The translations under genes were made by a program, and so were the position numbers. Shown here one piece after another: positions 652 to 58,776 of a DNA stretch of 64,000 bases. The DNA is from Candidatus Terraquivivens tikiterensis. GTDB taxonomy: Archaea > Thermoproteota > Nitrososphaeria_A > Caldarchaeales > Wolframiiraptoraceae. Location: assembly GCA_003056285.1 (NCBI GenBank), contig NDWU01000006.1:1543-65542 (forward strand). Direction: 5' to 3'. Positions within the stretch are counted from its first letter, which is position 1; each line of letters begins with the position of its first letter. The notes below the pieces were generated by a model that was given only the letters and a program-made list of their open reading frames with translations, was not told where the DNA came from and ran no database searches.

Positions 652-1057
652 CACCGTTAGCGAAATCTGCATCATTCATGCCTGGGATGAAAAGCGAAAG
701 AAGCTCGTAAAAGCCCCAATGCCCCCTCATAATGCCCTCAGGATCACGAAAAGTGACGAAGCCATAAAAGGCATCGAAACGCGCAGAAAACCGGATAAGC
801 TAAAAGCTCATGCCCGGCCGGGAACGATAGAATGGGGAAAGCTTACTGGAAGCTTTGGAGACATTCAAGAAGACCCTATACGCCCATCTAGCGGAGCATC
901 TGCTGGCCTACGTGCTGGCAAGCCCATATTTGAAGCAGGGAAACCGTGGTATTACCGCCTTGGCTAACTCGCATTAACCTAACGCTTTCTGTTAAACTTA
1001 GAAGGCTTTATACGGTTCCCTTAGCCCTTCCAAGATGACGTCGCCGAGGCCGTTGGT

Positions 1058-2059
1058 ATGAAGGTATCCTACAAAGGCGGTGCGCTCGTAGCGTATAAGG
1101 ATACGTTAATGGCATTCGACGCGGCAGAGGATTTGTCAGGCAAAGCTTTAAGGTGCATAACCCATGCGCATGCAGACCACATCATGAGGGTGAACGAATC
1201 CAACCCGCTAATGACCGTTGAAACCTTCGAGCTACTGAGAGCTATAAGAGGCCTGGAACGCCGTGCGAACGTCGTAGAGCTCGGGGCTGTGGTGAAGGTC
1301 GGGCCAGCTAGGATAAGGACAATGAACGCCGGCCATATACTGGGCTCGTGCCAATACGCCGTTGAGTGCGATGAGGGTACCCTGCTCTTTAGCGGAGACA
1401 TAAACGTTCACGACACCCTCGTTACTAGGGCAGCAGAGCCTATCCATGCAGATTTCATGGTCGTAGAGGCGACGTACGGCGAGCCTTCTTTTATATTCCC
1501 TGATAGGGAGGTAGTTTATTCAAAAATCGTGAAGTGGATCTGCGATTGTATAAAGGATGGTAGCTTGCCAGCGTTCAAGGCATACCTCGTAGGCAAGTCT
1601 CAGGAGCTTATAAAATTGGTTAACGAATACTTAGGGATACCTGTCGTTGTAAGCGGGGCAGTGGCTAGGGTGTGTGAAGTTTACAAGAAATTTGGTTTAG
1701 GCCTCTCATATTTTTGCATGGGCTCGGCCGATGCCGATGAGCTCCTCAGGTCAGGCGAGTGCGTGTACGTTGGCAACCGCAGAGTTGATGTTCCCACTAG
1801 TCGGACTGTAAAATGGGCAATAGCGACTGGTTGGGCGCTTAAATACAGGTTCGAGCTTTACGACGCCACTTTTCCGCTGAGCTCCCATGCCGATTTTAAG
1901 GGATTGATAGAGCATGTCGAGGCGTGCATGCCGAGGGTTGTCTACACGATGCATGGCTATAGCATGCAGCTTGCTAGGATACTAGAGAGAAGGGGTTTCG
2001 TGGCGGCGGCTCTCGAATCTGCCGGAACGCTTGCACCGCTCACCCGCGGGGAGATGTAA
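1058..2059 (+). CDS. metallo-beta-lactamase fold nuclease, short beta-CASP-like form
   Basis: HAHADH motif, later GH and D/H motifs (NAGHILGS, SGDIN, SSHAD, MHGY); 333 aa. Confidence 0.75.
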   Translation: MKVSYKGGALVAYKDTLMAFDAAEDLSGKALRCITHAHADHIMRVNESNPLMTVETFELLRAIRGLERRANVVELGAVVKVGPARIRTMNAGHILGSCQYAVECDEGTLLFSGDINVHDTLVTRAAEPIHADFMVVEATYGEPSFIFPDREVVYSKIVKWICDCIKDGSLPAFKAYLVGKSQELIKLVNEYLGIPVVVSGAVARVCEVYKKFGLGLSYFCMGSADADELLRSGECVYVGNRRVDVPTSRTVKWAIATGWALKYRFELYDATFPLSSHADFKGLIEHVEACMPRVVYTMHGYSMQLARILERRGFVAAALESAGTLAPLTRGEM

Positions 2060-2104
2060 ACTCCTTAGCAAAATTAAAATATCCCCAAGAGCAAAATATC
2101 TTCC

Positions 2105-2278
2105 ATGAGCTCTGGGAGAAAACGCAAAGAGGCTCCGATGCCTGCGACGATGGCAGGATTGTTGGCATTCTTCGGCGAAGAGTCTAAAGGTTTTAAGGTT
2201 AGGCCAGAGGTCGTGATGATAGCGGCGATCGCTTTAATCATCATGGTTTTAGTAATGGGCAGGATCTGGCCGTTTTGA
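2105..2278 (+). CDS. secG: preprotein translocase Sec61-beta (archaeal SecG)
   Basis: Not in the ORF track (57 aa). MSSGRKRKEAPMPATMAGLLAFFGEESKGFKVRPEVVMIAAIALIIMVLVMGRIWPF has a basic N-terminus, the AGLxxFF motif and a single C-terminal TM helix. Confidence 0.85.
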   Translation: MSSGRKRKEAPMPATMAGLLAFFGEESKGFKVRPEVVMIAAIALIIMVLVMGRIWPF

Positions 2279-2492
2279 GCTATCCATGGTTGTAAGCCCA
2301 TGGACTCACTGTCTCCTGACTTCCTGACCAACGCCTCTAGACGGTCATGGGCTTTGCGCTGGCTTTCATTATACTGCATCTAAGCTCCAACGCCCCTCCG
2401 CTTTACTGGATGCTTTGCACCAAACACGTACCCTTGGGCTGACGACAAAAAGCTGGAGGAAAACATAAATGTTCGCTTTTCATCCAGACGCT
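2276..2492 (-). repeat. copy X of a duplicated promoter-leader-sORF module (partner at 49085-49310)
   Basis: Hand alignment of the reverse complement to 49085-49310 gives long near-identical blocks: TATA-like box, leader, ATG 2379 and the first 17 codons, then the ...GLQPW codons. Confidence 0.7.
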
Positions 2493-2568
2493 AGATGTTG
2501 CGGGACCTTCACCTCACAATGTTAATATCAATCTTTGTAATAGAGGCGGGGTTAGGGCGGGCGTAGTC

Positions 2569-7129: not shown

Positions 7130-7330
7130 TTAACGCTCTTGGCCGCTGGATTTTATCCTTCCTAGCTCGCTCTTTAGAAGATCCCTTACAGCCATCCGCA
7201 TGACCGCGCTCCTGCTAGGATACATGCCCTTCCTGACGAGCTCGTCCATGCCCTCTATAAGGGCCTCTGGCATCTTCACGGAGATAAGCCTCATGCCCTT
7301 CTTGTCACGTGCTCCACTAACCTTTTCCAT
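7130..7330 (-). CDS. ribbon-helix-helix (CopG family) protein
   Basis: MRLISVKMPEALIEGMDELVRKGMYPSRSAVMRMAVRDLL. Close paralog of 25598-25783. The real start may be the internal M (about 7294). Confidence 0.75.
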   Translation of the reverse strand: MEKVSGARDKKGMRLISVKMPEALIEGMDELVRKGMYPSRSAVMRMAVRDLLKSELGRIKSSGQER

Positions 7331-13768: not shown

Positions 13769-13981
13769 CTAGCAACAGATAGCATGTCCCCCGTGGCTGT
13801 TTTTTATGTATTTGTTGGGGTCTTTCTCAAACTCCCGCTTACATGCCTGGGAGCAGAAGTAGTAGGTCTTCCCACCGTGCTCAGCCTTATACTTCACAAC
13901 GGCTACATCAACTTCCATACCACAAACCGGGTCGATCGCCTTCACAACCATATCCTTATCACCAATATAAAATATTGCCAA
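13769..13981 (-). CDS. YHS/TRASH-type metal-binding small protein
   Basis: DPVCGMEVD....GKTYYFCSQACKREFEKDPNKY. Confidence 0.8.
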   Translation of the reverse strand: MAIFYIGDKDMVVKAIDPVCGMEVDVAVVKYKAEHGGKTYYFCSQACKREFEKDPNKYIKNSHGGHAICC

Positions 13982-18738: not shown

Positions 18739-18851
18739 TTGGATGGGTTGGCAAAACTTAAATACGCTCGAGTACCCTTTGGGTTTAGTACATTCTGATG
18801 AGCCATGAACCCGTATATCCCATGCGTTAACGGGTGCATGGGATGGCGGAG
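18739..18851 (+). repeat. copy A of TATA + conserved-hairpin leader element (partner 20675-20771, inverted)
   Basis: Shares with the reverse complement of copy B the 14-mer caaaacttaaatac, tttgggtt(t/g)agtac, and the hairpin CCCAUGC-loop-GCAUGGG followed by the identical atggcggag. Confidence 0.65.
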
Positions 18852-19585: not shown

Positions 19586-20587
19586 TCAACAGTCTTCGCG
19601 ATCGATCACTATCTCTTCCAGTGGACGAACATCGTTTGGTTTCCAGAAAGGCTCCCTTAGATAAACCGCTTTTAGGAATAGCCTTTCAAGCTCCTCATCT
19701 GAGGCACCGCTCCTCATCGGTGTCAAAAAGTCCACTAGGTTATCATCCCTCATCAAGCACGGTTTAAATTTTCCATCGTGCGTTATCCTTATCCTTGAAT
19801 CGTTCATGCAGAAATCGCAGTTTCTCATCGGTCTTACAAGTTCAACCCAGACGTTTTCAGGTAAAAGGTATTGCCTCCTCAAATGCAGTTTACGCGTTAC
19901 GCATTTTATTGCCCTCCTTTTAATAGCTTCCTCTACCGGTCCGAGGTTGTAATAATATTTTTGGAAAAACTCAGCACTCGATGCTTCACCTTCATGAACC
20001 AGCTCTATCAACTGGAGTATGCAGTTGTCATGCCCGAAAGCTTTCACGAAATTAATCATGTCATCTATCTCATCCTCGTTTACTCCCTTCATAACCACGA
20101 CGTTAAGCTTCACGGTCTCCATGCCAGCATCCAGGGCCGCTTTTATCGCATCTATCGTATACCTAAGCCTGTTTTCCCCGTCTACAGACCTCGTTCCGGT
20201 TATCCAGCAAAACTTTTGCGGGTCTACGGTGTGCAGGCTGATGTTGACCCTGCTTAGGCCGGCCTCGCGTAGCCTTTTCGCAAGCTGTGGAAACCGCGTA
20301 CCGTTCGTCGTCATAGAGATTTCTTTAAAGTTAAGGCCATGTAGCCTCTCAACTATCTCGACGATGTCGTTCCTAAGCATGGGCTCGCCCCCTGTCAGCT
20401 TGACGCTCTCGATGCCGAATTTCTTCAAAACCCTCATTACCCTCTCTATCTCTTCTGGCGTCATAGAGGTATCCGTGTTCTCGTAAACGCCTTCCATGTG
20501 GCAAAAGATGCACCTAAAGTTGCACTTAGCACTTGGGGTGAGCGATATCCTGACACCGTTAACTGGCCTGTTATACCTATCTAACAG
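19586..20587 (-). CDS. moaA: GTP 3',8-cyclase MoaA (radical SAM), start codon unresolved
   Basis: The track ORF (to 20497) lacks the cluster motif. The in-frame upstream extension encodes LLDRYNRPVNGVRISLTPSAKCNFRCIFCH (CX3CX2C). The only in-frame start candidate before the upstream TGA (20600-20602) is CTG 20585-20587. Confidence 0.85.
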   Translation of the reverse strand: MLDRYNRPVNGVRISLTPSAKCNFRCIFCHMEGVYENTDTSMTPEEIERVMRVLKKFGIESVKLTGGEPMLRNDIVEIVERLHGLNFKEISMTTNGTRFPQLAKRLREAGLSRVNISLHTVDPQKFCWITGTRSVDGENRLRYTIDAIKAALDAGMETVKLNVVVMKGVNEDEIDDMINFVKAFGHDNCILQLIELVHEGEASSAEFFQKYYYNLGPVEEAIKRRAIKCVTRKLHLRRQYLLPENVWVELVRPMRNCDFCMNDSRIRITHDGKFKPCLMRDDNLVDFLTPMRSGASDEELERLFLKAVYLREPFWKPNDVRPLEEIVIDREDC

Positions 20588-20674: not shown

Positions 20675-20771
20675 CTCCGCCATCCCATGCCCCTCGTTAA
20701 CGCATAGGCTATAGGGGCGTACTCAACCCAAATAGTATCCAAGGGTATTTAAGTTTTGTCCGTTCATCCAA
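20675..20771 (-). repeat. copy B of TATA + conserved-hairpin leader element (upstream of moaA)
   Basis: See copy A. The stem has a U-G wobble only when read on the minus strand, toward moaA. Confidence 0.65.
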
Positions 20772-25430: not shown

Positions 25431-25601
25431 ATGAGTAAAAGCAAGAGGTCATCATGGATGATATACCAAGCGCTCCTGGAATGCTTCTCCCAAGAGTTCC
25501 TCTCTCTAGCATGCCCTCGTGACAAAAAAACCATCGAGGTCATGCCTATAATCCCTGATGGACATTACATCCAAGCCTACATCCCTAGGTGCGTGGTATG
25601 A
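25431..25601 (+). CDS. small protein (56 aa), unknown, coupled to the RHH gene
   Basis: MSKSKRSSWMIYQALLECFSQEFLSLACPRDKKTIEVMPIIPDGHYIQAYIPRCVV. An AT-rich TATA block (25401-25420) lies directly upstream and the stop overlaps ATG 25598. Confidence 0.45.
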   Translation: MSKSKRSSWMIYQALLECFSQEFLSLACPRDKKTIEVMPIIPDGHYIQAYIPRCVV

Positions 25602-25783
25602 AGCTCGTCTCGGTTAAGATGCCAGAGGCGCTGATAGACGGTATTGATGAGCTAGTAAGGTTAAACTTGTATCCAAGCCGGAGCGCTGTAATAAGGGCTG
25701 CTGTAAGAGACCTGCTAAAAACCGAGCTGCCCGGTTGGTCAGCAGGAAAGAAACGTATAGAGGTCCCGCCGGGAGAGGGGTAA
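25598..25783 (+). CDS. ribbon-helix-helix (CopG family) protein, paralog of 7130-7330
   Basis: MKLVSVKMPEALIDGIDELVRLNLYPSRSAVIRAAVRDLL. Confidence 0.75.
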   Translation: MKLVSVKMPEALIDGIDELVRLNLYPSRSAVIRAAVRDLLKTELPGWSAGKKRIEVPPGEG

Positions 25784-34362: not shown

Positions 34363-34452
34363 GGGCCCGTAGCCTAGCAAGGACAGGGCGCTGTGCGGAG
34401 GCGCGCAAGCCTTCGGAGCCGGAGGTCGCGGGTTCGAGTCCCGCCGGGCCCG
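34363..34452 (+). tRNA. tRNA-Arg(UCG) with a 15-nt intron inside the anticodon stem (29/30)
   Basis: Acceptor GGGCCCG/CGGGCCC, D arm GCCU-AGCAAGGACA-GGGC, T arm GCGGG-UUCGAGU-CCCGC. The anticodon arm CUGGC-CUUCGGA-GCCGG forms only after removing 34394-34408, leaving 75 nt mature. Confidence 0.75.
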
Positions 34453-34717
34453 CTCCTAATTAAGTGCAAATCGCTATATAGAAGTGCACCTCTTAGGCTT
34501 GACATAAGTACTTCACCTCTCTCAAGCGAGGGCTGCACTTGTCTTAAGGAGTGTTTGGAGGAAAGGATTAGAAGCTATGAGGAGCTAAAGCCCCTTGATA
34601 GCCCATGAGCGAAAATAGGTTGCGGAAAAGCCACTCATAATGACGAAAAAGATAACCACTTTATAATGCAGTGCATGAGAAAAGCCGGAGTTTATAAAAT
34701 GCTGTATGTTCTTATAG

Positions 34718-43077: not shown

Positions 43078-43374
43078 GGGGCGTGTGGCCCGTAGTCCTC
43101 CTTCTGTTTTAGGCGGGATTTGTCTAATCGGCACCGAGGCCTCGTGGGGGCAACTCAAAGGCCTCGTCTGCCTTTCCCGCGCGGGCCGCCCGTTCCACTC
43201 GCTCCCGATGCCTCGTCAGCGGCTTCTGGCCGCATCAAGCTCATCGACATCGGGGGATATCGTTTCTGGTGCGTTGCCAGGGGTCTCCCCCTACGCCTCG
43301 CGGCGTCGCGCGCCCCCGCTCGGGGGAGGAACTTCCGCAGGAGCTCCCCGAGACCCGCCCAGCCACTCGCCCCG
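43078..43374. ncRNA. GC-rich, highly structured ~300-nt RNA candidate (identity and strand unresolved)
   Basis: The ends pair (43078-43089 with 43362-43373, 11 of 12 bp), followed by a second 8-bp helix (43110-43117 with 43354-43361) and many internal perfect hairpins. Its GC resembles the rRNA/tRNAs rather than coding DNA. Overlapping ORFs translate to R/S/P/G-rich nonsense. Confidence 0.5.
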
Positions 43375-44574
43375 TTAAATCGAAGCTAGAATCGCTAATT
43401 AGGCTTTTCCCGGCCGCTAGTGAAGCTTTATAAAGCCAGCTAAATGCTTCGTGAAGGAATGCAATACCTAGTTAAAATATCTTGTTTCCAATAACCAAAA
43501 AGCCTTATTAATGACCATCAAGAATTGAATGATTGCCAAAGCGTTGTATGAAAGCTGCCGGTCTTGGACCGGTTTGCTCGATGCGGGAGTAAGTGAAGCT
43601 TACTGTGACCGCGCTCAAAGGCCTGGAGACGTCGCCAGCTGGGCGGCGTGGAACGCCTAGGCCAGGGTACGCCAGCCGGTGGATAACTCGGCTTGGGCGC
43701 CGACGAAGGGCGTGGCAAGCTGCGATAAGCCCCGGGTAGCCGCATGCAGGCGTCGATCCGGGGATGCCCTAATGGGATTTCCTGCAGCCGGTCGCGCAAG
43801 CGGCTGGCTGCGTACCGCGTTATGCGGTACGGGAACCCCCCGAACGGAAACATCCAAGTAGGGGGAGGAAAAGAAACCAAAATGGGATTCCCTGAGTAAC
43901 GGCGAGTGAAAGGGGAACAGCCCAAACCGAATCCCTACGGGTGACCGTAGGGAGATGTAGGGTTATGGACCGGTCGCCCGCTTAGCCCGCAGAGCCGAAG
44001 CGACCTGGAAAGGTCCGCCATAGAGGGTGAAAGCCCCGTAGGCGAAGGCGGGCTAAGGGAAGGACCGGTATCCAGAGTACCGTACCTCGGATATGGTGCG
44101 GGAAGTTGGGAGCCATCGGCTTCCAAGGCTAAATACGTCCCAAGACCGATAGCGCACCAGTACCGTGAGGGAAAGTTGAAAAGAACCCCGGGAGGGGTGT
44201 GAAAAGCGCTTGAAACCGGCTGGTAACAGACGAGTGCGGCCTGAAAGGGCAATCCACCCGAAGGCTTCCTTCTGGGAGCCGAGGGTGGATACCAGGGTCG
44301 CACGCTCCGTCTTGAAACACGGGCCGGGGAGTTCATGGCCATGGCGAGCTTAAGCGCTCACCAAGGCGCGTAGGCGTGGGGAAACCGACATGCCCGCAAC
44401 CAGGGTTTTCCCTGGTGAGGGGCGGGGTCCGAAAGGGCCTGGAGTCATGGCCATGAGACTAGAAACCGGGCGATCTAGCCCTGGGTAGGGTGAAGCCGGG
44501 CGAAAGCCCGGTCGAGGCCCGAAGGGGTCTTGACGTGCAATTCGGTCCTCTGACCCGGGGCTAGGGGCGAAAAA

Positions 44575-44609
<35 letters not shown>

Positions 44610-45066
44610 GTGAGTCGCAGCTCAGCCTCCGGCGAGGTAGCCCAGGGGGTAGAGCACCGATAGGGGGGTAAGGGCTCGAAAGGGCCCGCCTTCCTTTCGA
44701 ACTCCGAATACCTGGGCGCCGTAGACCCGGGGAGTGGGGCATGGGGGGTAAGCTCCCATGCCGAGAGGGGAACAACCCAGACCTAGGGTTAAGGCCCCTA
44801 AGTGCCCGCTAAGTGACAAACCAAAGGGCGTCTCCAGCCTAAGACAGCGGGGCCGTAGGCTTAGAAGCAGCCATCGGCTAAGAAGTGCGTAACAGCTTAC
44901 CCGCCGAGGCTGGGGGCCCCGAAAATTGACGGGTCTAAGCGGGCCGCCGAAACCCTGGTCCACCAAGCGTGTGCTTGGTGGAGGTAGGAGGGCGTGACGG
45001 TTGGGCAGAAGCCGGGCCGTGAGGTCCGGTGGACCGACCGTCAATGTAGATCCCGGTGGTAGTAAC

Positions 45067-45098
<32 letters not shown>

Positions 45099-45586
45099 GG
45101 GGCAAGGGTCTCCTGGCAATGCGTCGTCAGCCAGGAGTAAGCCGGTCCTAAGGCCGACCTTAACCGGGTAGGCCGAAAGGGAAACCGGTTAAGATTCCGG
45201 TGCCTCCGGGATACGTGCGGCGACGCAAGCCCAGCCTCCGACGCTTCGGGGTAGGCCGAGCCGGGCCGTAGCCCGGTCTAACCGTATAAGCCTGGGGAGT
45301 GCCGTAAAGGCGAGAACCAGGTGAAAGCGGGAATGGCCGCCCGTATGGGCGGTTCGGCTGATCCCTGGAGCCCGTGAAAAGGGGGCTGGGAAGGATTCCC
45401 GGAGACCGTGCCAAGAACCGACACAGGTGCCCCTAGGTGAGAAGCCTAAGGCGTATCGGGTCACTCCGGGGTGAGGGAACTCGGCAAATTGGCCCCGTAC
45501 CTTTGGTAGAAGGGGTGCCTGCGGCCCTGGTGGAGACACTGGGGCCGCAGGTCGCAGTGACCAGGGGGTCCCGACTGTTTAATAAA

Positions 45587-46189
45587 CGGACAAAGGCACC
45601 GGCCAAATCTTTAAATATTATATCTATAGAAAGTTTATGAGGTGTACATCGACCCATACATTGTCGGTATCTTCTTTGGAGATGGAGTTACATATAAAAC
45701 CAAACACGGTGCATACTGCGTTTGGATAGACCAAAAAGACAAAAATAAGGGCATTCTAGAAAGCGAGGTTATTCCAAGGCTTAAAAAGATGGGCCTCAAA
45801 GTATACTTTTATAGCTATTACGCAAAAGCTGACCGCACTTTGAAGTGGCGTGTCTTAACGTACTCAAAAGAATTGTACATGGCAATTCGTAGCATCTCCA
45901 GAAGGATAGCAGAATACTTCAGTACTCTTTCGGATAAAGATGCAACGCAGTTTATCGCAGGCTTCTTCGACGCTGAAGGCACGAAAACGGACAGGATTGT
46001 AATATACAATCAAAACCTTGAACTTCTTAAGATAGTAAAGCAGAGGTTGATAAACTTAAGCATTCAAAATCCTCACATCTACAGATTTGGGTCGATTTAT
46101 GGATTACAAATATACTGTAAAAGATCTGTGAAAAAATTTCTAGAGTTAATCCCTTCTTGTAGGCTAAAGGTGCGCTTGTCCGGTTAAAA
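45587..46189 (+). other. 23S rRNA intron 1 (archaeal splicing type)
   Basis: Interrupts GACUGUUUAAUAAA|AACAUAGG. The intron ends pair (cggacaaaggcacc / ggtgcgcttgtccg). The boundary is ambiguous within the A-run. Confidence 0.8.
45642..46187 (+). CDS. LAGLIDADG homing endonuclease, two-motif, apparently intact
   Basis: IVGIFFGDGV and FIAGFFDAEG motifs in a 181-aa ORF wholly inside intron 1. Confidence 0.85.
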   Translation: MYIDPYIVGIFFGDGVTYKTKHGAYCVWIDQKDKNKGILESEVIPRLKKMGLKVYFYSYYAKADRTLKWRVLTYSKELYMAIRSISRRIAEYFSTLSDKDATQFIAGFFDAEGTKTDRIVIYNQNLELLKIVKQRLINLSIQNPHIYRFGSIYGLQIYCKRSVKKFLELIPSCRLKVRLSG

Positions 46190-46317
46190 AACATAGGAAG
46201 CCGCAAGACCGAAAGGTTTTGAACGGCTTCTGAATCCTGGCCAGTGGGGGTACCTGAAACCCGGGTCCAACCGGGCTAAGGGCCCCTAAACGCCGGGAGT
46301 AACTCTGACTCTCTTAA

Positions 46318-46878
46318 CGGGACCTCCCCACCCCTTAGAGACATATTTTAAATAAAGGTGATCGATCGTTAGCTATGACTGGCGAGCTTGAGAAAGGCTA
46401 CGTAAGTGGTTTAATTGACGCCGAAGCCAGCTTTTCAGTAAGCGTAAAGGTTCAAAACAATTTACGTTGCAAGGTTCGCGTCGATCCAGTTTTCAGTATA
46501 ACACAAATGAGCAGAAAACCGTTAGAAATTGCTCAGAGGGTCCTTGGTTGCGGCAGGATAATACGAAAACCCGGTCAAACACATCTATGGATGCTCGTTG
46601 TGGACCGTTTAGATGATCTCTCTCAAAGATTGATTCCGGCCCTAAACGAACTTAAATTAATATCTAAAAATCTGTATACGGTTTGTTTCGAGAAGTAGTT
46701 TTTAAGCTAGCTAGAAAGAAATACTCCTTAACCTGCAAGGATATTAGAGAACTAGTGATAATGGCTTACAAATTATCAGAACTTAACTCGAAATCCACTC
46801 GTAAAAGGTCTCTTAAAGATACTCTTTCCCTAATTCCTCTCTCGGATAATCATGGGGGTGGGCAAGGCCCGGGAGAAA
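46318..46878 (+). other. 23S rRNA intron 2
   Basis: Interrupts CUCUUAA|GGUAGCCAAAUGCC. Confidence 0.8.
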
Positions 46879-46883
46879 GGTAG
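46375..46883 (+). pseudogene. single-motif (I-CreI-like) LAGLIDADG endonuclease split by a 1-nt frameshift near 46680-46690
   Basis: YVSGLIDAEASFSV is in the first frame (to 46698). The C-terminal part (..FREVVFKLARKK...LSELNSKSTRKRSL..) is in a second frame from 46683. Confidence 0.7.
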
Positions 46884-47400
46884 CCAAATGCCTTGTCGGG
46901 TAAGTTCCGACGTGCATGAATGGATCAACGAGGGCCCCACTGTCCCCACCCGGAGCCCGGTGAACCCACGTAACGTGGGCGAACAGTCCACGAGCCCCCA
47001 GCGGGGAAAGAAGACCCTGTGGAGGTTTACTGCAGCCTGCTGCTGGGATGCGGTCGGAGGCACAGAGCGTAGGCGGGAGCCGTAGATCCCAACTCCTCCG
47101 GGAGTTGGGGGAGGCGCCGATGTAACACCGCCTGCCTTTGGCTGCATCCCTGACCGGGGCCGAGGCCCTGGGACAACGGCAGGTGGGCAGTTCGGCTGGG
47201 GCGGCACCCCCTTGAAAAGATATCGAGGGGGCCCAAAGGTCGGCTTAGGCGGGACAGAAACCCGCCGTTAAGTGTAAGGGCAAAAGCCGGCCTGACTGGA
47301 CCCTTGAACGCAAGGGGTCCAGAGGCGAAAGCCGGGCCTAGCGATCCTTCAACTCCCACCGATGGGGGTTGGAGGTGACAGAAAACTTACCCCAGGGATA

Positions 47401-48039
47401 CTGCGCGCATCGCCCGATTCCTGCCAAAACCCTTTTAACCGGGTGTCTACAAAAAAGTTAAGATTACTATGGATCTTTCCGACGACATATATTTCTTGGT
47501 GGGAGCATTGGAGGATGGATATCTTGGCATGCGGAAAAGTAAGGGAGAATACCTCATAGAATTTTATCAAAAGAATGAGGCTTGGCTGTCCAATGAGATA
47601 CTGATGAGATTAAGATGAGATTAAATAAGAATGGATTCAACACCTCAGTAATATTACAAAGTGGCGGTCTATTCGAAGAAGCTTTATACGATGCTTCAAA
47701 AGGCGAAAAAGCATTTGTATGTACAACTAACGAAGACAGACCTTGACGATAGGAGGACCTTAGGTTACGTCCAAGCGATGTTTGATAGTGAAGGAGCGGT
47801 TCACAAAAACTTAGCTAGAATAACTCTCTGGAATAAGGATGAAAATAAACTTAAGTTGGTTAAGAGGTTGTTAGAGAAAGCCGGCATAACTTGCGGCAAA
47901 ATAACTAGGTCGAGAAACGTTTACGGACTTCCGATTTATGGTAAGGATAATTTAGTTTTATTTGCGAAAAAGATAGGATTCAGACACCCGGTTAAGAGGG
48001 CAAGGTTGGCAGGTAAGGGCGCCTTGGCGCAGCCCTAAA
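47401..48039 (+). other. 23S rRNA intron 3
   Basis: Interrupts CCAGGGAUA|ACAGGCU. The intron ends pair (ctgcgcgc / ggcgcag). Confidence 0.8.
47469..48038 (+). pseudogene. two-motif LAGLIDADG endonuclease broken by a stop and a frameshift
   Basis: MDLSDDIYFLVGALEDGYLG... stops at 47616-47618. The second half (..YVQAMFDSEGAVH..) is in another frame from 47661. Confidence 0.7.
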
Positions 48040-48104
48040 ACAGGCTCGTCGCGGGCGAGAGTTCCCATCGACCCCGCGGCTTGGTACCTCGATGTCGGCT
48101 CTTC

Positions 48105-48136
<32 letters not shown>

Positions 48137-48149
48137 CGGCTGTTCGCCG

Positions 48150-48192
<43 letters not shown>

Positions 48193-49084
48193 ATCGGATT
48201 TTACCTGCTGGGGGTGCTGGCTGCCTGAGGGGAAGGTGCTCCCAGTACGAGAGGAACGGAGCGCCGGGGCCAACGGTTTACCGGTTGTCCTACAGGGCAG
48301 AGCCGGGCAGCTGCGCCCCTGCGGATAAGGGCTGAAAGCATCTAAGCCCGAAGCCGCTCCCGAAAATAGGCAGCCAATCCGGAGCTTAGGGCCTGGCAAC
48401 AGGCTCGTGCTCCGGACGAGAGCCCCCGTAGAAGACGGGCTTGATGGGGTGGAGGTGTACGGGCGGAGGCTTTGGCCGGACGCCCTCAGCCTGCCACTCC
48501 CAAAAGCTCGAGTGGCCTAGGAACGTCACGCCGCCTGGGCGAAAACGTCTCCGGCCTTTGGGCGCGGCCTTGTAGTGTGCCGAAGAGAAAGGTAATATGC
48601 TTTGGTTACTTTAACCTTGACTTCCATTTAGCAAACAGGGCTCGACAGCAATTTCTGAACAGTTAACTCCTCATAAAAGTTCAGAGTATACTCTACTGTA
48701 GAAGCGTCACCAATATCCCGTTCAGTCGCTATACGAATGGCGAAGCTAGGAAGCTCCTAGAGGACTTCAGGGACATGTTAACTTCTGCATAGACTATGCC
48801 GTCAAAAAGAGGGTAACGTCATATGCCAAGCTTATGAGGGGCGCATACGTGGATTGGAAAAGGCGCCGGGACTACTCGAATAATCCAAAGGGAAAGATAT
48901 GTGGTGGAAGGTTGGCAGCGAATGGGCATGGGTTAGTAAGGTGTAGCGTGGATACGAGAACGATAGGGATGCTATTGCATGCTTGAACATGATGTAAACG
49001 GCTACCCGGCATATTTTTATTTTTGGAAGATAACTCAAGCTCTAGTATCGTTTGGCAACGTTAGCTGAAAATCCAGCACGCTCC

Positions 49085-49310
49085 AGCGTCTAAAAGCGAA
49101 CGCTTATATTTTCCCTCCAGCTTTTTGTCGTCAGCCCGGGGGCATGTGTTTGGTGAAAAGCATCCAGTAAAGCGAAGGGGGCGTTGGAGCTTAGATGCCG
49201 TATAATGAAAGCCAGCGCAAAGCCCATGACCGTCTAGAGGCGTTAGGCCGGAGAATAAGCCGGAAGTCAACGGGCGGAAGGCCGACGGGCTTACAGCCAT
49301 GGGAAGCTCA
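49085..49310 (+). repeat. copy Y of the duplicated promoter-leader-sORF module (partner 2276-2492, inverted)
   Basis: See copy X. It includes TATA-like gcttatatttt (about 49102-49112) and a conserved ~75-nt leader. Confidence 0.7.
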
Positions 49311-49347
49311 CATAATGCGTACCTACAGCCACGGTGTTAAAGCTTGA
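49195..49347 (+). CDS. 50-aa sORF, conserved N-terminus MxYNESQRKAHDRLEAL, unknown function
   Basis: GGAG lies 6 nt before the ATG. The paralog at 2379 (minus strand) differs by synonymous changes (ttg/tta, agg/cgg, caa/cag) and an in-frame 12-nt indel. The stop overlaps TTG 49344 of the next gene (TTGA). Confidence 0.55.
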   Translation: MPYNESQRKAHDRLEALGRRISRKSTGGRPTGLQPWEAHIMRTYSHGVKA

Positions 49348-49745
49348 AGCCTGTTTGTGAGATAATGGTCAAGCATTTCTTACCCGTTCTGAGGGCCATG
49401 GTAGCCAAGGAGCTTTGCGAAAAGTACGGGATGAAGCAAGAGGAGTCCGCAAGGAAGCTCGGAATCACGCAGGCGGCCATAAGCTACTACCTCTCTGGTA
49501 AAAGGGGTGTTACGACAAGGAGGGGGCTCGCTCATATAGAGGACGACCCTAAAGTCAAAGAGATGGTGAGGGAGTTAGCGAGGTCCATTGCAAGCGGGAA
49601 GGCATCGACGCCCGACGCGATCGGGCTCTTATGCAGGACGTGCATGCTGCTCAGGTCCCGTGGTGATTTATGCCCCATCCATTCAGATGCTGTCCATTCT
49701 TTGGGCAAGGGCTGCAACCTGTGCAAGAACCTCTTCCCTAAGTGA
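49344..49745 (+). CDS. HTH transcriptional regulator with C-terminal Cys/His cluster
   Basis: ..QEESARKLGITQAAISYYLSGKRG.. HTH; C-terminal CRTC...CPIH...C.LC. Confidence 0.75.
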   Translation: MKPVCEIMVKHFLPVLRAMVAKELCEKYGMKQEESARKLGITQAAISYYLSGKRGVTTRRGLAHIEDDPKVKEMVRELARSIASGKASTPDAIGLLCRTCMLLRSRGDLCPIHSDAVHSLGKGCNLCKNLFPK

Positions 49746-57489: not shown

Positions 57490-58776
57490 TTGGACGGTTT
57501 AAAGGCCAAGGTTTGGCGTAAGAGCCACAGCCTAAAGAGCGTTGAGATGCTCGAGGTCGGCGAGGCTAAGCTTAGGGAGTACGTCGAGTCTAAAGGGCTT
57601 ACGTTCGATGAGCAAATAAGGCTGCTAAAGTCTGGCGGTGATATATATAGTTTTCTCGACGATTATGTTAGCTACCTGGACTCCCAGTCTCTAAAACCGA
57701 AAACGATCAAGGATTATGTGTACTGGGCTAAAAAAATCCTTAGGCACTACGGCGTCCAGATCAAGAACGAGGAGCTGCGGGAGAGGGTTTCCCTGCCTAA
57801 GGTCCAAAGACCCCTAGATTCTGGCCTGGACGCCGCGCAGGTCAGGAGGATACTTTTAAACTGTAAAAATGAGCGCCTTAGGCTTCTCTTAATGCTCTGC
57901 AAGGATACGCTGGCTAGGCCGATAGAGCTACTCGGGTTGCAGGTAAAGCATTTCAACTTCGACTCTATACCCAAGTCCGTCACGATACCGGCATACCTAG
58001 CAAAAAACGATATGGAGAGGGAAACGTTCTTCACGGACGAAACATTCGAGTTTCTAAGGGGCTATATGCTGAAGCATAATATCCATGGAAAAGAGGACTT
58101 CATCTTCCTGGGTAAGGAGGTAAACCCAAAGGACGAGCTACAGTTTCAATCCCAACTATACAAGGCAGAGGCCGCCATGGAGAAGGCATGGAGGGAGCTC
58201 ATGAGAAGCCCCGCTCTAGCGGATCTGAACGAGAGGATAGAGCTAAGGGGAAAGGCTCCACGCTACAAAATCCACATCTACAGCTTCAGAAAATTCGGCT
58301 TCACAAAGGTTGCAGATACGCTTGGAGAGATAGCAGCGCATGCGCTAGCCGGGCATGAGGCGTACATGATCACGTACTACCGAAAAACTAGAGAGGAGAG
58401 GGCCGCGGATTACCTTAAGGTAGCGCCTAAACTTATGGTTCTCACACAACCGCTGAGCATCGACGAGGTTAAGAGACAGGCTGGGCTCGAGGCAATACGG
58501 CGGCTTGCCGAGAGCTTCGGAATAGACCCGGCCAGGATAAGGATAGAGCGCGAAGGCATGGGTGTCGATGAGGAGATCTCAGCCATACAGGCTGAGATCA
58601 AAAGGTTCATATCCCAGGCGCTAAGGCTTAGGGAAAACTCGGCCGTAGACGACTGCCAATACGAGAGCAGGATAGTTTCAGAGGCTGATTTGGAAAGCTA
58701 CCTGAACGCGGGCTGGGAGTTCCAGGCCCAGATAAACAACGGGAAATACATCGTCAGGAGGCCTAAAAATGCTTAG
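57490..58776 (+). CDS. int: tyrosine recombinase / integrase
   Basis: ..DTLARPIELLGLQV.. (Arg), ..IHIYSFRKFGFT.. (H..R), ..ALAGHEAYMITYYRK (H, Tyr). Confidence 0.85.
   Translation: MDGLKAKVWRKSHSLKSVEMLEVGEAKLREYVESKGLTFDEQIRLLKSGGDIYSFLDDYVSYLDSQSLKPKTIKDYVYWAKKILRHYGVQIKNEELRERVSLPKVQRPLDSGLDAAQVRRILLNCKNERLRLLLMLCKDTLARPIELLGLQVKHFNFDSIPKSVTIPAYLAKNDMERETFFTDETFEFLRGYMLKHNIHGKEDFIFLGKEVNPKDELQFQSQLYKAEAAMEKAWRELMRSPALADLNERIELRGKAPRYKIHIYSFRKFGFTKVADTLGEIAAHALAGHEAYMITYYRKTREERAADYLKVAPKLMVLTQPLSIDEVKRQAGLEAIRRLAESFGIDPARIRIEREGMGVDEEISAIQAEIKRFISQALRLRENSAVDDCQYESRIVSEADLESYLNAGWEFQAQINNGKYIVRRPKNA

What the first reader, a model, noticed from the sequence alone, without database searches (positions are those of the whole stretch)
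49085..49347. Duplicated promoter-leader-sORF module with a conserved N-terminus and a swapped central cassette (copy Y, coupled to an HTH/Cys regulator)
- **Alignment:** by hand, 49085-49310 aligns to the reverse complement of 2276-2492.
- **Near-identical blocks:** a TATA-like box (gcttatatttt vs atttatgtttt), a ~75-nt leader (..ctccagctttttgtcgtcagccc..gtgtttggtg.aaagcatccagtaaagcg..ggggcgttggagcttag), the ATG preceded by GGAG, and 17 codons (M-[P/Q]-YNESQRKAHDRLEAL).
- **Divergent middle:** about 30-45 nt barely align and differ in length by 12 nt (in frame), after which identity resumes (GLQPW).
- **Evidence for coding:** differences in the conserved coding blocks include three synonymous ones (ttg/tta, agg/cgg, caa/cag), which points to a translated small protein.
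- **Leader:** the strong conservation of the untranslated leader additionally suggests an RNA-level function.
- **Context:** the sORF stop overlaps the TTG start of the regulator gene at 49344 (TTGA). I recognise no family.
Basis: seen in the sequence. Interest (0 to 1): 0.72.

Follow-up and report, generated by a model that had tools for sequence, protein, structure and literature searches.

The report
Orphan promoter-like repeat in an archaeon
The duplicated "promoter-leader-small ORF" is real, but it looks like a roughly 250-bp repeat found only in one hot-spring archaeal lineage, sitting where the genome was rearranged, not a conserved small-protein or RNA family.

Summary
**Observation confirmed.** 49050-49310 (+) aligns with 2274-2520 (-). 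The core is 90-96% identical, the central patch 38% and the right block 84%.

**What it is.**
- The organism is a relative of Candidatus Terraquivivens ("Aigarchaeota").
- The unit is a repeat specific to this lineage. A third, partial copy lies about 1 kb left of the window, upstream of aroC.
- It is absent from the matching sites in sister genomes.
- Copy Y sits in about 650 bp of extra DNA that replaces the regulator's TATA region, next to a decayed YHS gene.
- Copy X sits at one junction of a 1.3-kb inversion and supplies the stop codon of secG.

**The sORF looks incidental.**
- The unit has no stop codon in the sORF frame. The ORF ends in flanking DNA: the regulator's native 5' region in Y, and 65 antisense-secG codons in X.
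- The peptide has no homologue among 1.84 billion representative proteins.
- There is no Rfam match and no excess folding stability.
- Between strains the sORF changes at about the neutral rate, and all changes are nonsynonymous.

**Best reading (0.5).** It is a dispersed, possibly once mobile, repeat carrying a TATA-like box. Recent copying or gene conversion keeps the copies alike. In Y it probably now drives the regulator.

A young orphan small protein (0.25) is not excluded. Interest is low to moderate.

The parts
49050..49310 (+). Repeat unit, copy Y (core 49088-49246)
   Evidence: It aligns to X. It is absent from the orthologous 23S-to-regulator interval of GCA_023267975.1.
49104..49112 (+). 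TATA-like box TTATATTTT (X has TTTATGTTTT at about 2462-2471, minus strand). Placing the transcription start near 49130-49136 is an inference.
   Evidence: Read from the sequence. It is an archaeal-type A/T box preceded by AAAAGCGAAC in both copies. No transcript data exist.
49195..49347 (+). 50-codon sORF of copy Y. Codons 1 to about 39 come from the repeat. The last 6 codons (and possibly up to about 11) come from flanking DNA, including the regulator's native 5' region.
   Evidence: ORF listed. A gene caller called it in a JGI metagenome (P0001). The tail ACGGTGTTAAAGCTTGA is conserved in L003, which lacks the repeat.
49247..49285 (+). Divergent central patch (38% identical to X), built of short tandem repeats
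   Evidence: Y has GCCGGAGAATAA/GCCGGAAGTCAA; X has GTCAGGAA/GTCAGGAG (read).
49286..49310 (+). Right-end block, motif GGCTTWCARCCRTGGNWAGCTCA
   Evidence: It is shared by Y, X and a third copy at L010:3-25.
49344..49745 (+). HTH_3 regulator with a Cys/His-rich C-terminus; the TTG start is plausible
   Evidence: Pfam HTH_3, E = 5e-7. Codons 2-7 after the TTG differ from L003 by two synonymous changes and one replaced codon.
48660..49049 (.). About 390 bp of extra DNA of unknown origin, left of copy Y and also absent from L003
   Evidence: No protein or family match.
48563..48650 (-). Decayed YHS-domain gene (in-frame stop, cysteines lost, internal deletion)
   Evidence: tblastn with the intact L003 YHS protein.
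2274..2520 (-). Repeat unit, copy X. It fills the gap between the secG stop codon and the DUF2070 promoter.
2074..2379 (-). 101-codon ORF of copy X: 35 repeat-borne codons, then 65 codons antisense to secG
   Evidence: No gene with this product is on record.
2105..2278 (+). Sec61beta/secG gene. Its TGA stop is formed with bases from the right end of X (TGAGCT).
   Evidence: Pfam Sec61_beta, E = 4e-12. The T. ruidianensis orthologue ends in TAA, overlapping the stop of the HTH gene.
652..995 (+). Extra DNA at the other junction of the 1.3-kb inversion. 646-700 weakly resembles the left end of X/Y ('Z').
   Evidence: Gene order compared with L008. There is a 14-nt exact match, GGATGAAAAGCGAA, but nhmmer gives only E = 1.7.

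Best explanation
The module is a copy of a short (about 250 bp) dispersed repeat specific to this lineage. It is not a conserved gene or RNA.

**Shown**
- The genome carries at least three copies within about 52 kb. Y lies upstream of the HTH regulator. X lies between secG and DUF2070. W is a partial copy just upstream of aroC, about 1 kb left of the window.
- The unit is missing from the matching sites of sister species.
- The copies sit exactly where local DNA was remodelled.
   - Y is part of about 650 bp of extra DNA. That DNA replaces the intergenic region holding the regulator's TATA box, beside a decayed YHS gene.
   - X sits at one junction of a 1.3-kb inversion of the 333-aa gene plus secG.
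- The unit carries a TATA-like box, a GGAG-ATG and an open frame, but no stop codon. Each copy therefore yields a different chimeric ORF that ends in flanking DNA.

**Inferred**
- The unit spread by transposition-like insertion or by recombination. The transposase, if there was one, is not seen.
- The 135-bp core was later homogenised by gene conversion or recent copying. This would explain a 90-96% core beside 38-53% segments.
- In copy Y the unit's promoter now transcribes the regulator through a roughly 210-nt 5' region in which the sORF acts at most as an upstream ORF.
- In copy X the same promoter would make an RNA antisense to secG.
For: 1. **Copy number and repeat nature.** X and Y. W matches the 23-nt right-end motif; by my count of the sequences, 20 of 23 bases are identical to Y. 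Logan contigs break inside the 45-nt identical block.
2. **Absence at orthologous sites.**
   - L003 has 23S, then YHS, then a TATA box (TTTAAATA), then the regulator, with no unit. Homology to the window resumes at ACGGTGTTAAAGCTTGAAGCC.
   - L008 has neither X nor W.
   - Other regulator homologues lack it.
3. **Rearrangement context.** The inversion is seen against T. ruidianensis, with extra DNA at both junctions and the secG stop changed from TAA to TGA. The YHS pseudogene.
4. **No stop inside the unit; chimeric ORFs.**
5. **Orphan status.**
6. **Core not under detectable constraint.** Between strains about 2% apart, the sORF has 4 changes in 153 nt. All are nonsynonymous, and 3 of the 4 move towards the X state. 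pN is 0.035, against pS of 0.044-0.046 in the adjacent genes.
7. **Downstream of the TATA-like box there is no run of five T** apart from one at 49121-49125, just upstream of the inferred start, before the regulator (read).
Against: - There are no terminal inverted repeats and no target-site duplications.
- No transposase is nearby. My guess of a TnpB fragment at 48700-48990 found no support.
- Only three copies are known, and none outside this species, so mobility is not demonstrated.
- Mosaic identity is not what simple transposition predicts and needs an extra step (gene conversion).
- The frame stays open through the variable patch in X and Y.
- In the right block, 5 of about 7 differences among W, X and Y fall on third codon positions (p about 0.05). 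This hints at coding constraint.
- A weak A/T box (CATAATG, 49309-49315) could still serve the regulator.
- Upstream of aroC, a TAAATAA box lies downstream of W. Promoter donation is therefore unproven.
Confidence: 0.5

Rival explanations
1. A genuine young (orphan) small-protein gene family. The repeat carries a promoter, a Shine-Dalgarno-like GGAG and about 38 functional codons (MxYNESQRKAHDRLEAL ... G[LF]QPW). These are translated in each copy, with a tolerated variable middle and tail. In Y the protein would be translationally coupled to the regulator.
For: - GGAG lies 7 nt before the ATG, and a gene caller called the ORF.
- The frame is kept across the 12-nt indel.
- Between X and Y, pS is 0.18 against pN 0.06 over 28 codons.
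- The third copy W keeps GFQPWVAHI in frame, with changes mostly at third codon positions.
- The TGA stop overlaps the TTG start.
Against: - No homologue was found anywhere.
- The conserved unit has no stop codon, so the tails are accidental: 65 antisense-secG codons in X, and the regulator's native 5' region in Y.
- Strain-level changes are all nonsynonymous and occur at the neutral rate, including D12G in the 'conserved' N-terminus.
- The opposite strand of Y holds an even longer ORF of 79 codons, so an open frame of this size is not evidence by itself.
- All the counts are tiny.
Confidence: 0.25
2. A structured non-coding RNA or cis-regulatory leader of about 165 nt (49130-49296). Its ends pair as GUCAGCCC[G/A] with [C/U]GGGCUUAC, and it has a variable internal segment.
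For: - RNAalifold finds a 9-bp closing helix with one G-C to A-U double change. The helix would explain why the right block is kept.
- The leader is 90% identical between copies.
Against: - No Rfam family matches, even at E <= 10.
- Minimum free energies are no better than shuffles: z = +1.6 for Y and -0.9 for X.
- Only two full sequences exist, so one double change next to a hypervariable patch is weak.
- Predicted hairpins differ between copies; for example the CCATGG hairpin occurs only in X.
- No DNA homologue was found in genomes, metagenomes or viral contigs.
Confidence: 0.1
3. This is not an element at all. The copies are patches of DNA copied from one locus into break-repair or inversion junctions (template switching, or segmental duplication with later decay), with no function.
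For: - X lies exactly at an inversion junction, and both junctions carry filler DNA.
- Short direct repeats sit near the right ends: TACAGCCATGG/TACAGCCACGG in Y and CATGGTTTTA/CATGGTTGTA in X.
- The identity is patchwork.
Against: - The right end falls at the same place (AGCTCA) in three independent loci. In Y it coincides, within 20 nt, with the point where homology to the sister genome resumes. This favours a discrete unit.
- Uniform random decay is excluded by the contrast of 96% against 38% identity.
Confidence: 0.15

Closest known systems
Putative mobile promoters (PMPs; Matus-Garcia, Nijveen & van Passel 2012, summarised in PMC3575422)
   Same: Highly similar DNA (92% over 153 nt) lies upstream of unrelated genes within one genome. 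Like most PMP families it occurs as a pair or very small family, with about 92% identity, no known mobile element attached and no Rfam match (for the definition; here).
   Different: PMPs were defined from the -150 to -50 region upstream of annotated genes. Copy X is not upstream of any co-oriented gene; it faces the 3' end of secG. The unit also extends into an ORF. Promoter activity is untested.
Promoter-carrying miniature elements (Correia elements, ERIC, REPIN; archaeal MITEs of Sulfolobus, the latter from my own knowledge)
   Same: It is a short non-coding repeat in intergenic regions. It is absent from orthologous sites in relatives, is associated with rearrangement, and can bring an outward promoter.
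   Different: It has no terminal inverted repeats, no target-site duplication, no conserved hairpins and no partner transposase. Only three copies are known.
Upstream-ORF or leader-peptide control of a downstream regulator; toxin-antitoxin-like small ORF plus HTH pair
   Same: A small ORF lies directly before an HTH_3 gene with an overlapping stop and start (TTGA). The regulator gives faint HigA/HipB/MqsA-like hits.
   Different: - The regulator's homologues lack the sORF.
- The overlap uses the regulator's pre-existing 5' sequence.
- All the NCBIfam antitoxin scores are far below their cut-offs.

Membership tests
Conserved small-protein (sORF) family | Homologues in other genomes | tested here: not met
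   Only the protein itself was found in 5.8 billion clusters and in 1.84 billion representatives (P0007 is a spurious hit to a repeat adhesin). Peptide and DNA pattern scans of genomes, metagenomes and viral contigs gave 0.
Conserved small-protein (sORF) family | Purifying selection (excess of synonymous change) | tested here: inconclusive
   X against Y: 3 synonymous and 4 nonsynonymous. Window against the L007 strain: 0 synonymous and 4 nonsynonymous, at the neutral rate. W, X and Y right block: 5 of about 7 changes at third positions.
Conserved small-protein (sORF) family | A complete ORF (start and stop) inside the conserved unit | tested here: not met
   The stop lies in flanking DNA in Y and W. 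In X the frame runs 65 codons antisense into secG.
Known structured RNA or cis-regulatory leader (Rfam) | Match to a covariance model | tested here: not met
   There were no relevant hits at the gathering threshold or at E <= 10.
Known structured RNA or cis-regulatory leader (Rfam) | Folding stability above shuffles, and covariation | tested here: inconclusive
   z = +1.58 and -0.88. There is one double change in a 9-bp helix from only two sequences.
MITE or non-autonomous insertion element | Terminal inverted repeats and target-site duplication | tested here: not met
   The repeat finder shows none at the unit ends.
MITE or non-autonomous insertion element | Several dispersed copies, absent from orthologous sites of relatives | tested here: met
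   There are three copies (X, Y, W). The sites are empty or different in L003 and L008. The copy number is low.
IS200/IS605 derivative or TnpB guide-RNA region | TnpB/TnpA homologue, or subterminal hairpins conserved between copies | tested here: not met
   The 48700-48990 fragment gave no hit in Pfam, NCBIfam, PHROGs or the homology search. Hairpins are not shared by X and Y.
Putative mobile promoter (PMP) | At least 80% identity over at least 50 nt in upstream regions of non-paralogous genes | tested here: inconclusive
   The identity criterion is met (92% over 153 nt). Y, and probably W, lie upstream of co-oriented genes, but X does not.
Putative mobile promoter (PMP) | Actual promoter activity | not testable with these tools
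   There is only a TATA-like box at 49104-49112. No transcript data exist.
Type II toxin-antitoxin operon (small ORF plus HTH antitoxin) | Conserved gene pair in relatives | tested here: not met
   The regulator homologues in L003-L006 and L012-L014 have no upstream sORF.

The most novel reading that the evidence does not exclude
A previously undescribed kind of archaeal miniature element. It would lack inverted ends and target duplications, land in or beside core promoters, and bring its own TATA box, leader and an open-ended start codon. It would thereby rewire host genes (here an HTH regulator and possibly the aroC operon). Its read-through would create new small chimeric proteins, making it a visible route to de novo gene birth.
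Probability: 0.15. Interest if true: 0.55.

Novelty: new member of a known kind. Interest (0 to 1): 0.3.

Why it matters
If the unit really carries an active promoter, this is a clean archaeal example of promoter replacement. A conserved regulator would have lost its own TATA box and become dependent on a repeat. The same repeat would also produce an antisense RNA to an essential translocon gene.

It also shows how a repeat with an open-ended start codon makes different chimeric small ORFs at each site. That is raw material for new genes.

If it is inert, the case is a useful caution. Near-identity of a "leader" and a "sORF" between two copies within one genome reflects recent copying or gene conversion, not function.

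Tried and rejected
1. **TnpB/IS605 remnant.** I read 48700-48990 as a decayed TnpB N-terminus and considered the unit as a transposon right end or guide-RNA scaffold. There was no support from Pfam, NCBIfam, PHROGs or the homology search, and identity resumes after the variable patch, so I dropped it.
2. **Integrated element with att sites.** The copies are inverted and the interval holds 23S rRNA, RNase P RNA and core genes. The tyrosine recombinase at 57490-58776 is not linked by any evidence.
3. **C/D-box or H/ACA guide RNA with a swapped guide.** No boxes or pockets are visible in the sequence, and Rfam is empty.
4. **Third copy 'Z' at 646-700, with the 82-codon ORF as a divergent member.** It has a 14-nt exact match and sits at the other inversion junction. 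However, nhmmer gives E = 1.7 and BLASTP finds nothing, so I keep it only as a weak lead.
5. **Pattern scans elsewhere.** Scans for the peptide, the leader and the right end in GTDB genomes, JGI metagenome contigs and IMG/VR were all empty. Those collections evidently do not hold this organism.
6. **Inversion polymorphism between X and Y.** Both JGI contigs show the window's arrangement.

Full report

Yes.

- blastn joins X 2276-2517 with Y 49060-49310: 256 columns, 80% identity, E = 3e-56. The central 153 nt are 92% identical.
- The repeat finder reports two arms, of 75 nt (95%) and 71 nt (90%).
- Degenerate patterns for the peptide, the leader and the right end each hit only these two places in 64 kb, against zero in shuffles.
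- Identity is strongly mosaic: 53% at 49050-49087, 72% over the TATA-like box, 90% over the leader, 96% over the first 17 codons, 38% over 49247-49285 (with the 12-nt indel), and 84% over the GLQPW block.

Four corrections to the description:

1. Homology reaches further left than stated.
2. The alignable codons carry 3 synonymous but also 4 nonsynonymous differences.
3. The 12-nt difference is a tandem duplication in Y. The variable patch is made of short repeats in both copies.
4. Copy X has no stop codon. Its ORF runs 101 codons, antisense through a Sec61beta/secG gene.

**2. Organism and setting**

The window comes from an archaeon.

- It holds an intron-rich 23S rRNA (43654-48523), an archaeal RNase P RNA and one tRNA.
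- The DUF2070 protein next to X is 78% identical to that of Candidatus Terraquivivens ruidianensis and 71% identical to that of T. yellowstonensis. These belong to Wolframiiraptoraceae, Nitrososphaerota, formerly "Aigarchaeota".
- The same sequence occurs in JGI hot-spring metagenome 3300005800 and in Logan assemblies.

Position of the copies:

- Y lies 560 nt downstream of the 23S rRNA and directly upstream of an HTH_3 regulator with a Cys/His-rich tail.
- X fills the gap between the secG stop codon and the promoter of a DUF2070 membrane-protein gene.

**3. Comparison with relatives**

*The Y locus.* The regulator has few homologues.

- In GCA_023267975.1 (75% identical) gene order is conserved on both sides: the 23S end upstream, and the DUF7388-like gene, ferritin and TGT downstream.
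- There the interval between the 23S rRNA and the regulator holds only an intact 50-codon YHS gene on the minus strand, then a TTTAAATA box about 45 nt before the TTG start.
- The window diverges from that genome just after the 23S end. Homology returns at ACGGTGTTAAAGCTTGAAGCC, the Shine-Dalgarno-like GGTG and the first codons of the regulator.
- In between, the window has a decayed YHS gene with an in-frame stop, lost cysteines and a deletion. It is followed by about 390 bp of unknown DNA and then copy Y.
- The native TATA box is gone.
- The first codons after the TTG differ from the relative by two synonymous changes. The TTG start is therefore plausible.
- The last 6 codons of the sORF (HGVKA-stop) and the "TTGA overlap" are pre-existing regulator 5' sequence. 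They are not part of the repeat.
- More distant regulator homologues (54%, 44%, 44%) also lack the module.

*The X locus.*

- T. ruidianensis has the order aroC, Zn-ribbon, HTH (+), secG (-), 333-aa gene (-), DUF2070 (+). The HTH and secG stop codons overlap.
- The window has HTH (+), 340 bp of extra DNA (652-995), 333-aa gene (+), secG (+), X, DUF2070 (+).
- So a 1.3-kb segment is inverted, with extra DNA at both junctions. X is one of these junctions.
- The secG stop has changed from TAA to a TGA that uses bases of X's right end (TGAGCT).

*A third copy.*

- The JGI contig that covers X ends, about 1.03 kb left of the window, in CTGGCTTTCAGCCGTGGGTAGCTCACAT. By my count of the sequences, 20 of the 23 right-end motif bases are identical to Y.
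- It points towards aroC and lies about 40 nt upstream of it.
- The T. ruidianensis aroC upstream region has a TTTAAAT box where this copy ends, and it shows no trace of the unit.
- Logan contigs break inside the 45-nt identical block of X and Y, as expected for a repeat.

**4. Coding, RNA, or neither?**

*Protein.*

- A profile of both N-termini finds only the protein itself among 5.8 billion protein clusters.
- An exhaustive HMMER search of 1.84 billion representatives finds the protein itself plus one spurious repeat adhesin.
- Pfam, NCBIfam and PHROGs are empty.
- The unit carries no stop in the sORF frame, so the three copies end differently: AHIMRTYSHGVKA in Y, AHIWSGK in W, and 65 antisense-secG codons in X.
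- The opposite strand of Y has a longer ORF of 79 codons that is broken in X.
- Against a strain about 2% diverged (L007), the sORF has 4 nucleotide changes, all nonsynonymous: P2Q, D12G and E37I. Three of the four move towards the X state.
- For that comparison pN is 0.035. In the adjacent regulator and DUF7388 genes pS is 0.044-0.046 and pN is 0.008-0.013. The core therefore changes at about the neutral rate, with signs of exchange between copies.
- In favour of coding: the frame is kept across the indel; X against Y gives pS 0.18 and pN 0.06; and differences in the right block among W, X and Y fall mostly on third codon positions. All of these rest on a handful of sites.

*RNA.*

- No Rfam family matches, even at E <= 10.
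- Folding energies are no better than shuffles.
- RNAalifold proposes a 9-bp helix between 49130-49138 and 49286-49294, with one G-C to A-U double change. This is a lead, not evidence, because only two sequences are available.

**5. Most likely explanation (confidence 0.5)**

The module is a small dispersed repeat specific to this lineage, with defined ends.

- *Shown:* at least three copies; absence at orthologous sites; association with an inversion, a pseudogene and extra DNA; no stop codon in the unit; orphan status; no detectable constraint between strains.
- *Inferred:*
   - The unit spread by insertion or recombination.
   - Its 135-bp core was homogenised by gene conversion or recent copying.
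   - Its TATA-like box (49104-49112) fires at about 49130-49136.
   - In Y this now supplies transcription of the regulator, whose own TATA is lost.
   - In X it would give an RNA antisense to secG.
- *Caveats:*
   - The unit has no inverted ends or target duplications.
   - No transposase is present.
   - Weak A/T boxes lie downstream of Y (CATAATG) and W (TAAATAA), and these might serve the downstream genes.

**6. Rivals**

- A young orphan small protein: 0.25.
- Inert DNA patches copied into repair junctions: 0.15.
- A structured RNA or leader: 0.1.

**7. Comparison with known systems**

- The nearest concept is the "putative mobile promoter". That class is mostly pairs of about 92% identical upstream regions before unrelated genes, usually with no recognisable element or RNA family (PMC3575422).
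- The identity criterion is met, but copy X is not upstream of a co-oriented gene and promoter activity is untested.
- The unit fails the defining tests for a MITE (ends, duplications), for an IS200/IS605 derivative, for an Rfam family, for a conserved sORF family and for a toxin-antitoxin pair.

**8. Verdict**

- The sequence observation is right.
- The functional reading (a translated conserved small protein plus a functional RNA leader tied to this regulator family) is not supported.
- This is a new instance of a known kind of thing: a small intergenic repeat, possibly promoter-bearing. Interest is modest (0.3).
- The most novel reading still open is a promoter-targeting archaeal mini-element that rewires genes and spawns chimeric small ORFs. 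I put it at about 0.15.

Noticed in passing
window 43654-48523 (+), 43081-43370 (-): The 23S rRNA spans 4870 nt against a 2987-nt model, which implies about 1.9 kb of introns with LAGLIDADG-like ORFs (45642-46187, 47661-48038). No 16S gene lies upstream. Instead an RNase P RNA gene sits about 280 nt upstream on the other strand.
   Followed up: no
window 48563-48650 (-) and 13805-13933 (-): The YHS-domain gene next to the 23S rRNA is a pseudogene here (in-frame stop, Cys to Ser/Tyr, deletion). It is intact in GCA_023267975.1. An intact paralogue, 65% identical, lies at 13805-13933.
   Followed up: partly
window 652-2520 compared with L008 2374-4000: There is a 1.3-kb inversion of the 333-aa metallo-beta-lactamase-fold gene plus secG, relative to T. 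ruidianensis. Both junctions carry 240-340 bp of extra DNA. The left junction (719-967) holds an 82-codon ORF with no homologue, called as a gene in the JGI contig.
   Followed up: partly
L010:1-27 (about 1.03 kb left of window position 1): This is a third, partial copy of the repeat's right end, just upstream of aroC. The JGI contig ends inside it, so the rest of that copy is unknown.
   Followed up: partly
window 7130-7330 (-) and 25589-25783 (+): The 134-nt inverted repeat (75%) is a pair of paralogous small ribbon-helix-helix-like genes (M[RK]L[IV]SVKMPEALI[ED]G[MI]DELVR...). They are ordinary paralogues.
   Followed up: yes
window 18739-18791 and 20719-20771: A 53-nt inverted repeat (77%) contains AAACTTAAATAC-like boxes and flanks the gene at 19586-20497. 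It may be another duplicated promoter region.
   Followed up: no
window 57490-58776 (+): A 428-aa tyrosine recombinase (Phage_integrase, E = 1e-9) lies 8 kb downstream of copy Y. I found no link to the repeat.
   Followed up: no
window 49292-49302 / 49324-49334 and 2242-2251 / 2285-2294: In both full copies the right-end motif TACARCCATGG recurs imperfectly 32-43 nt further on in the flanking DNA. This could be microhomology used in insertion or recombination, or it could be chance.
   Followed up: no
window 34363-34453 (+): ARAGORN calls a 91-nt tRNA of undetermined type (two-base anticodon read). It is probably an intron-containing archaeal tRNA that Rfam missed at the gathering threshold.
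   Followed up: no
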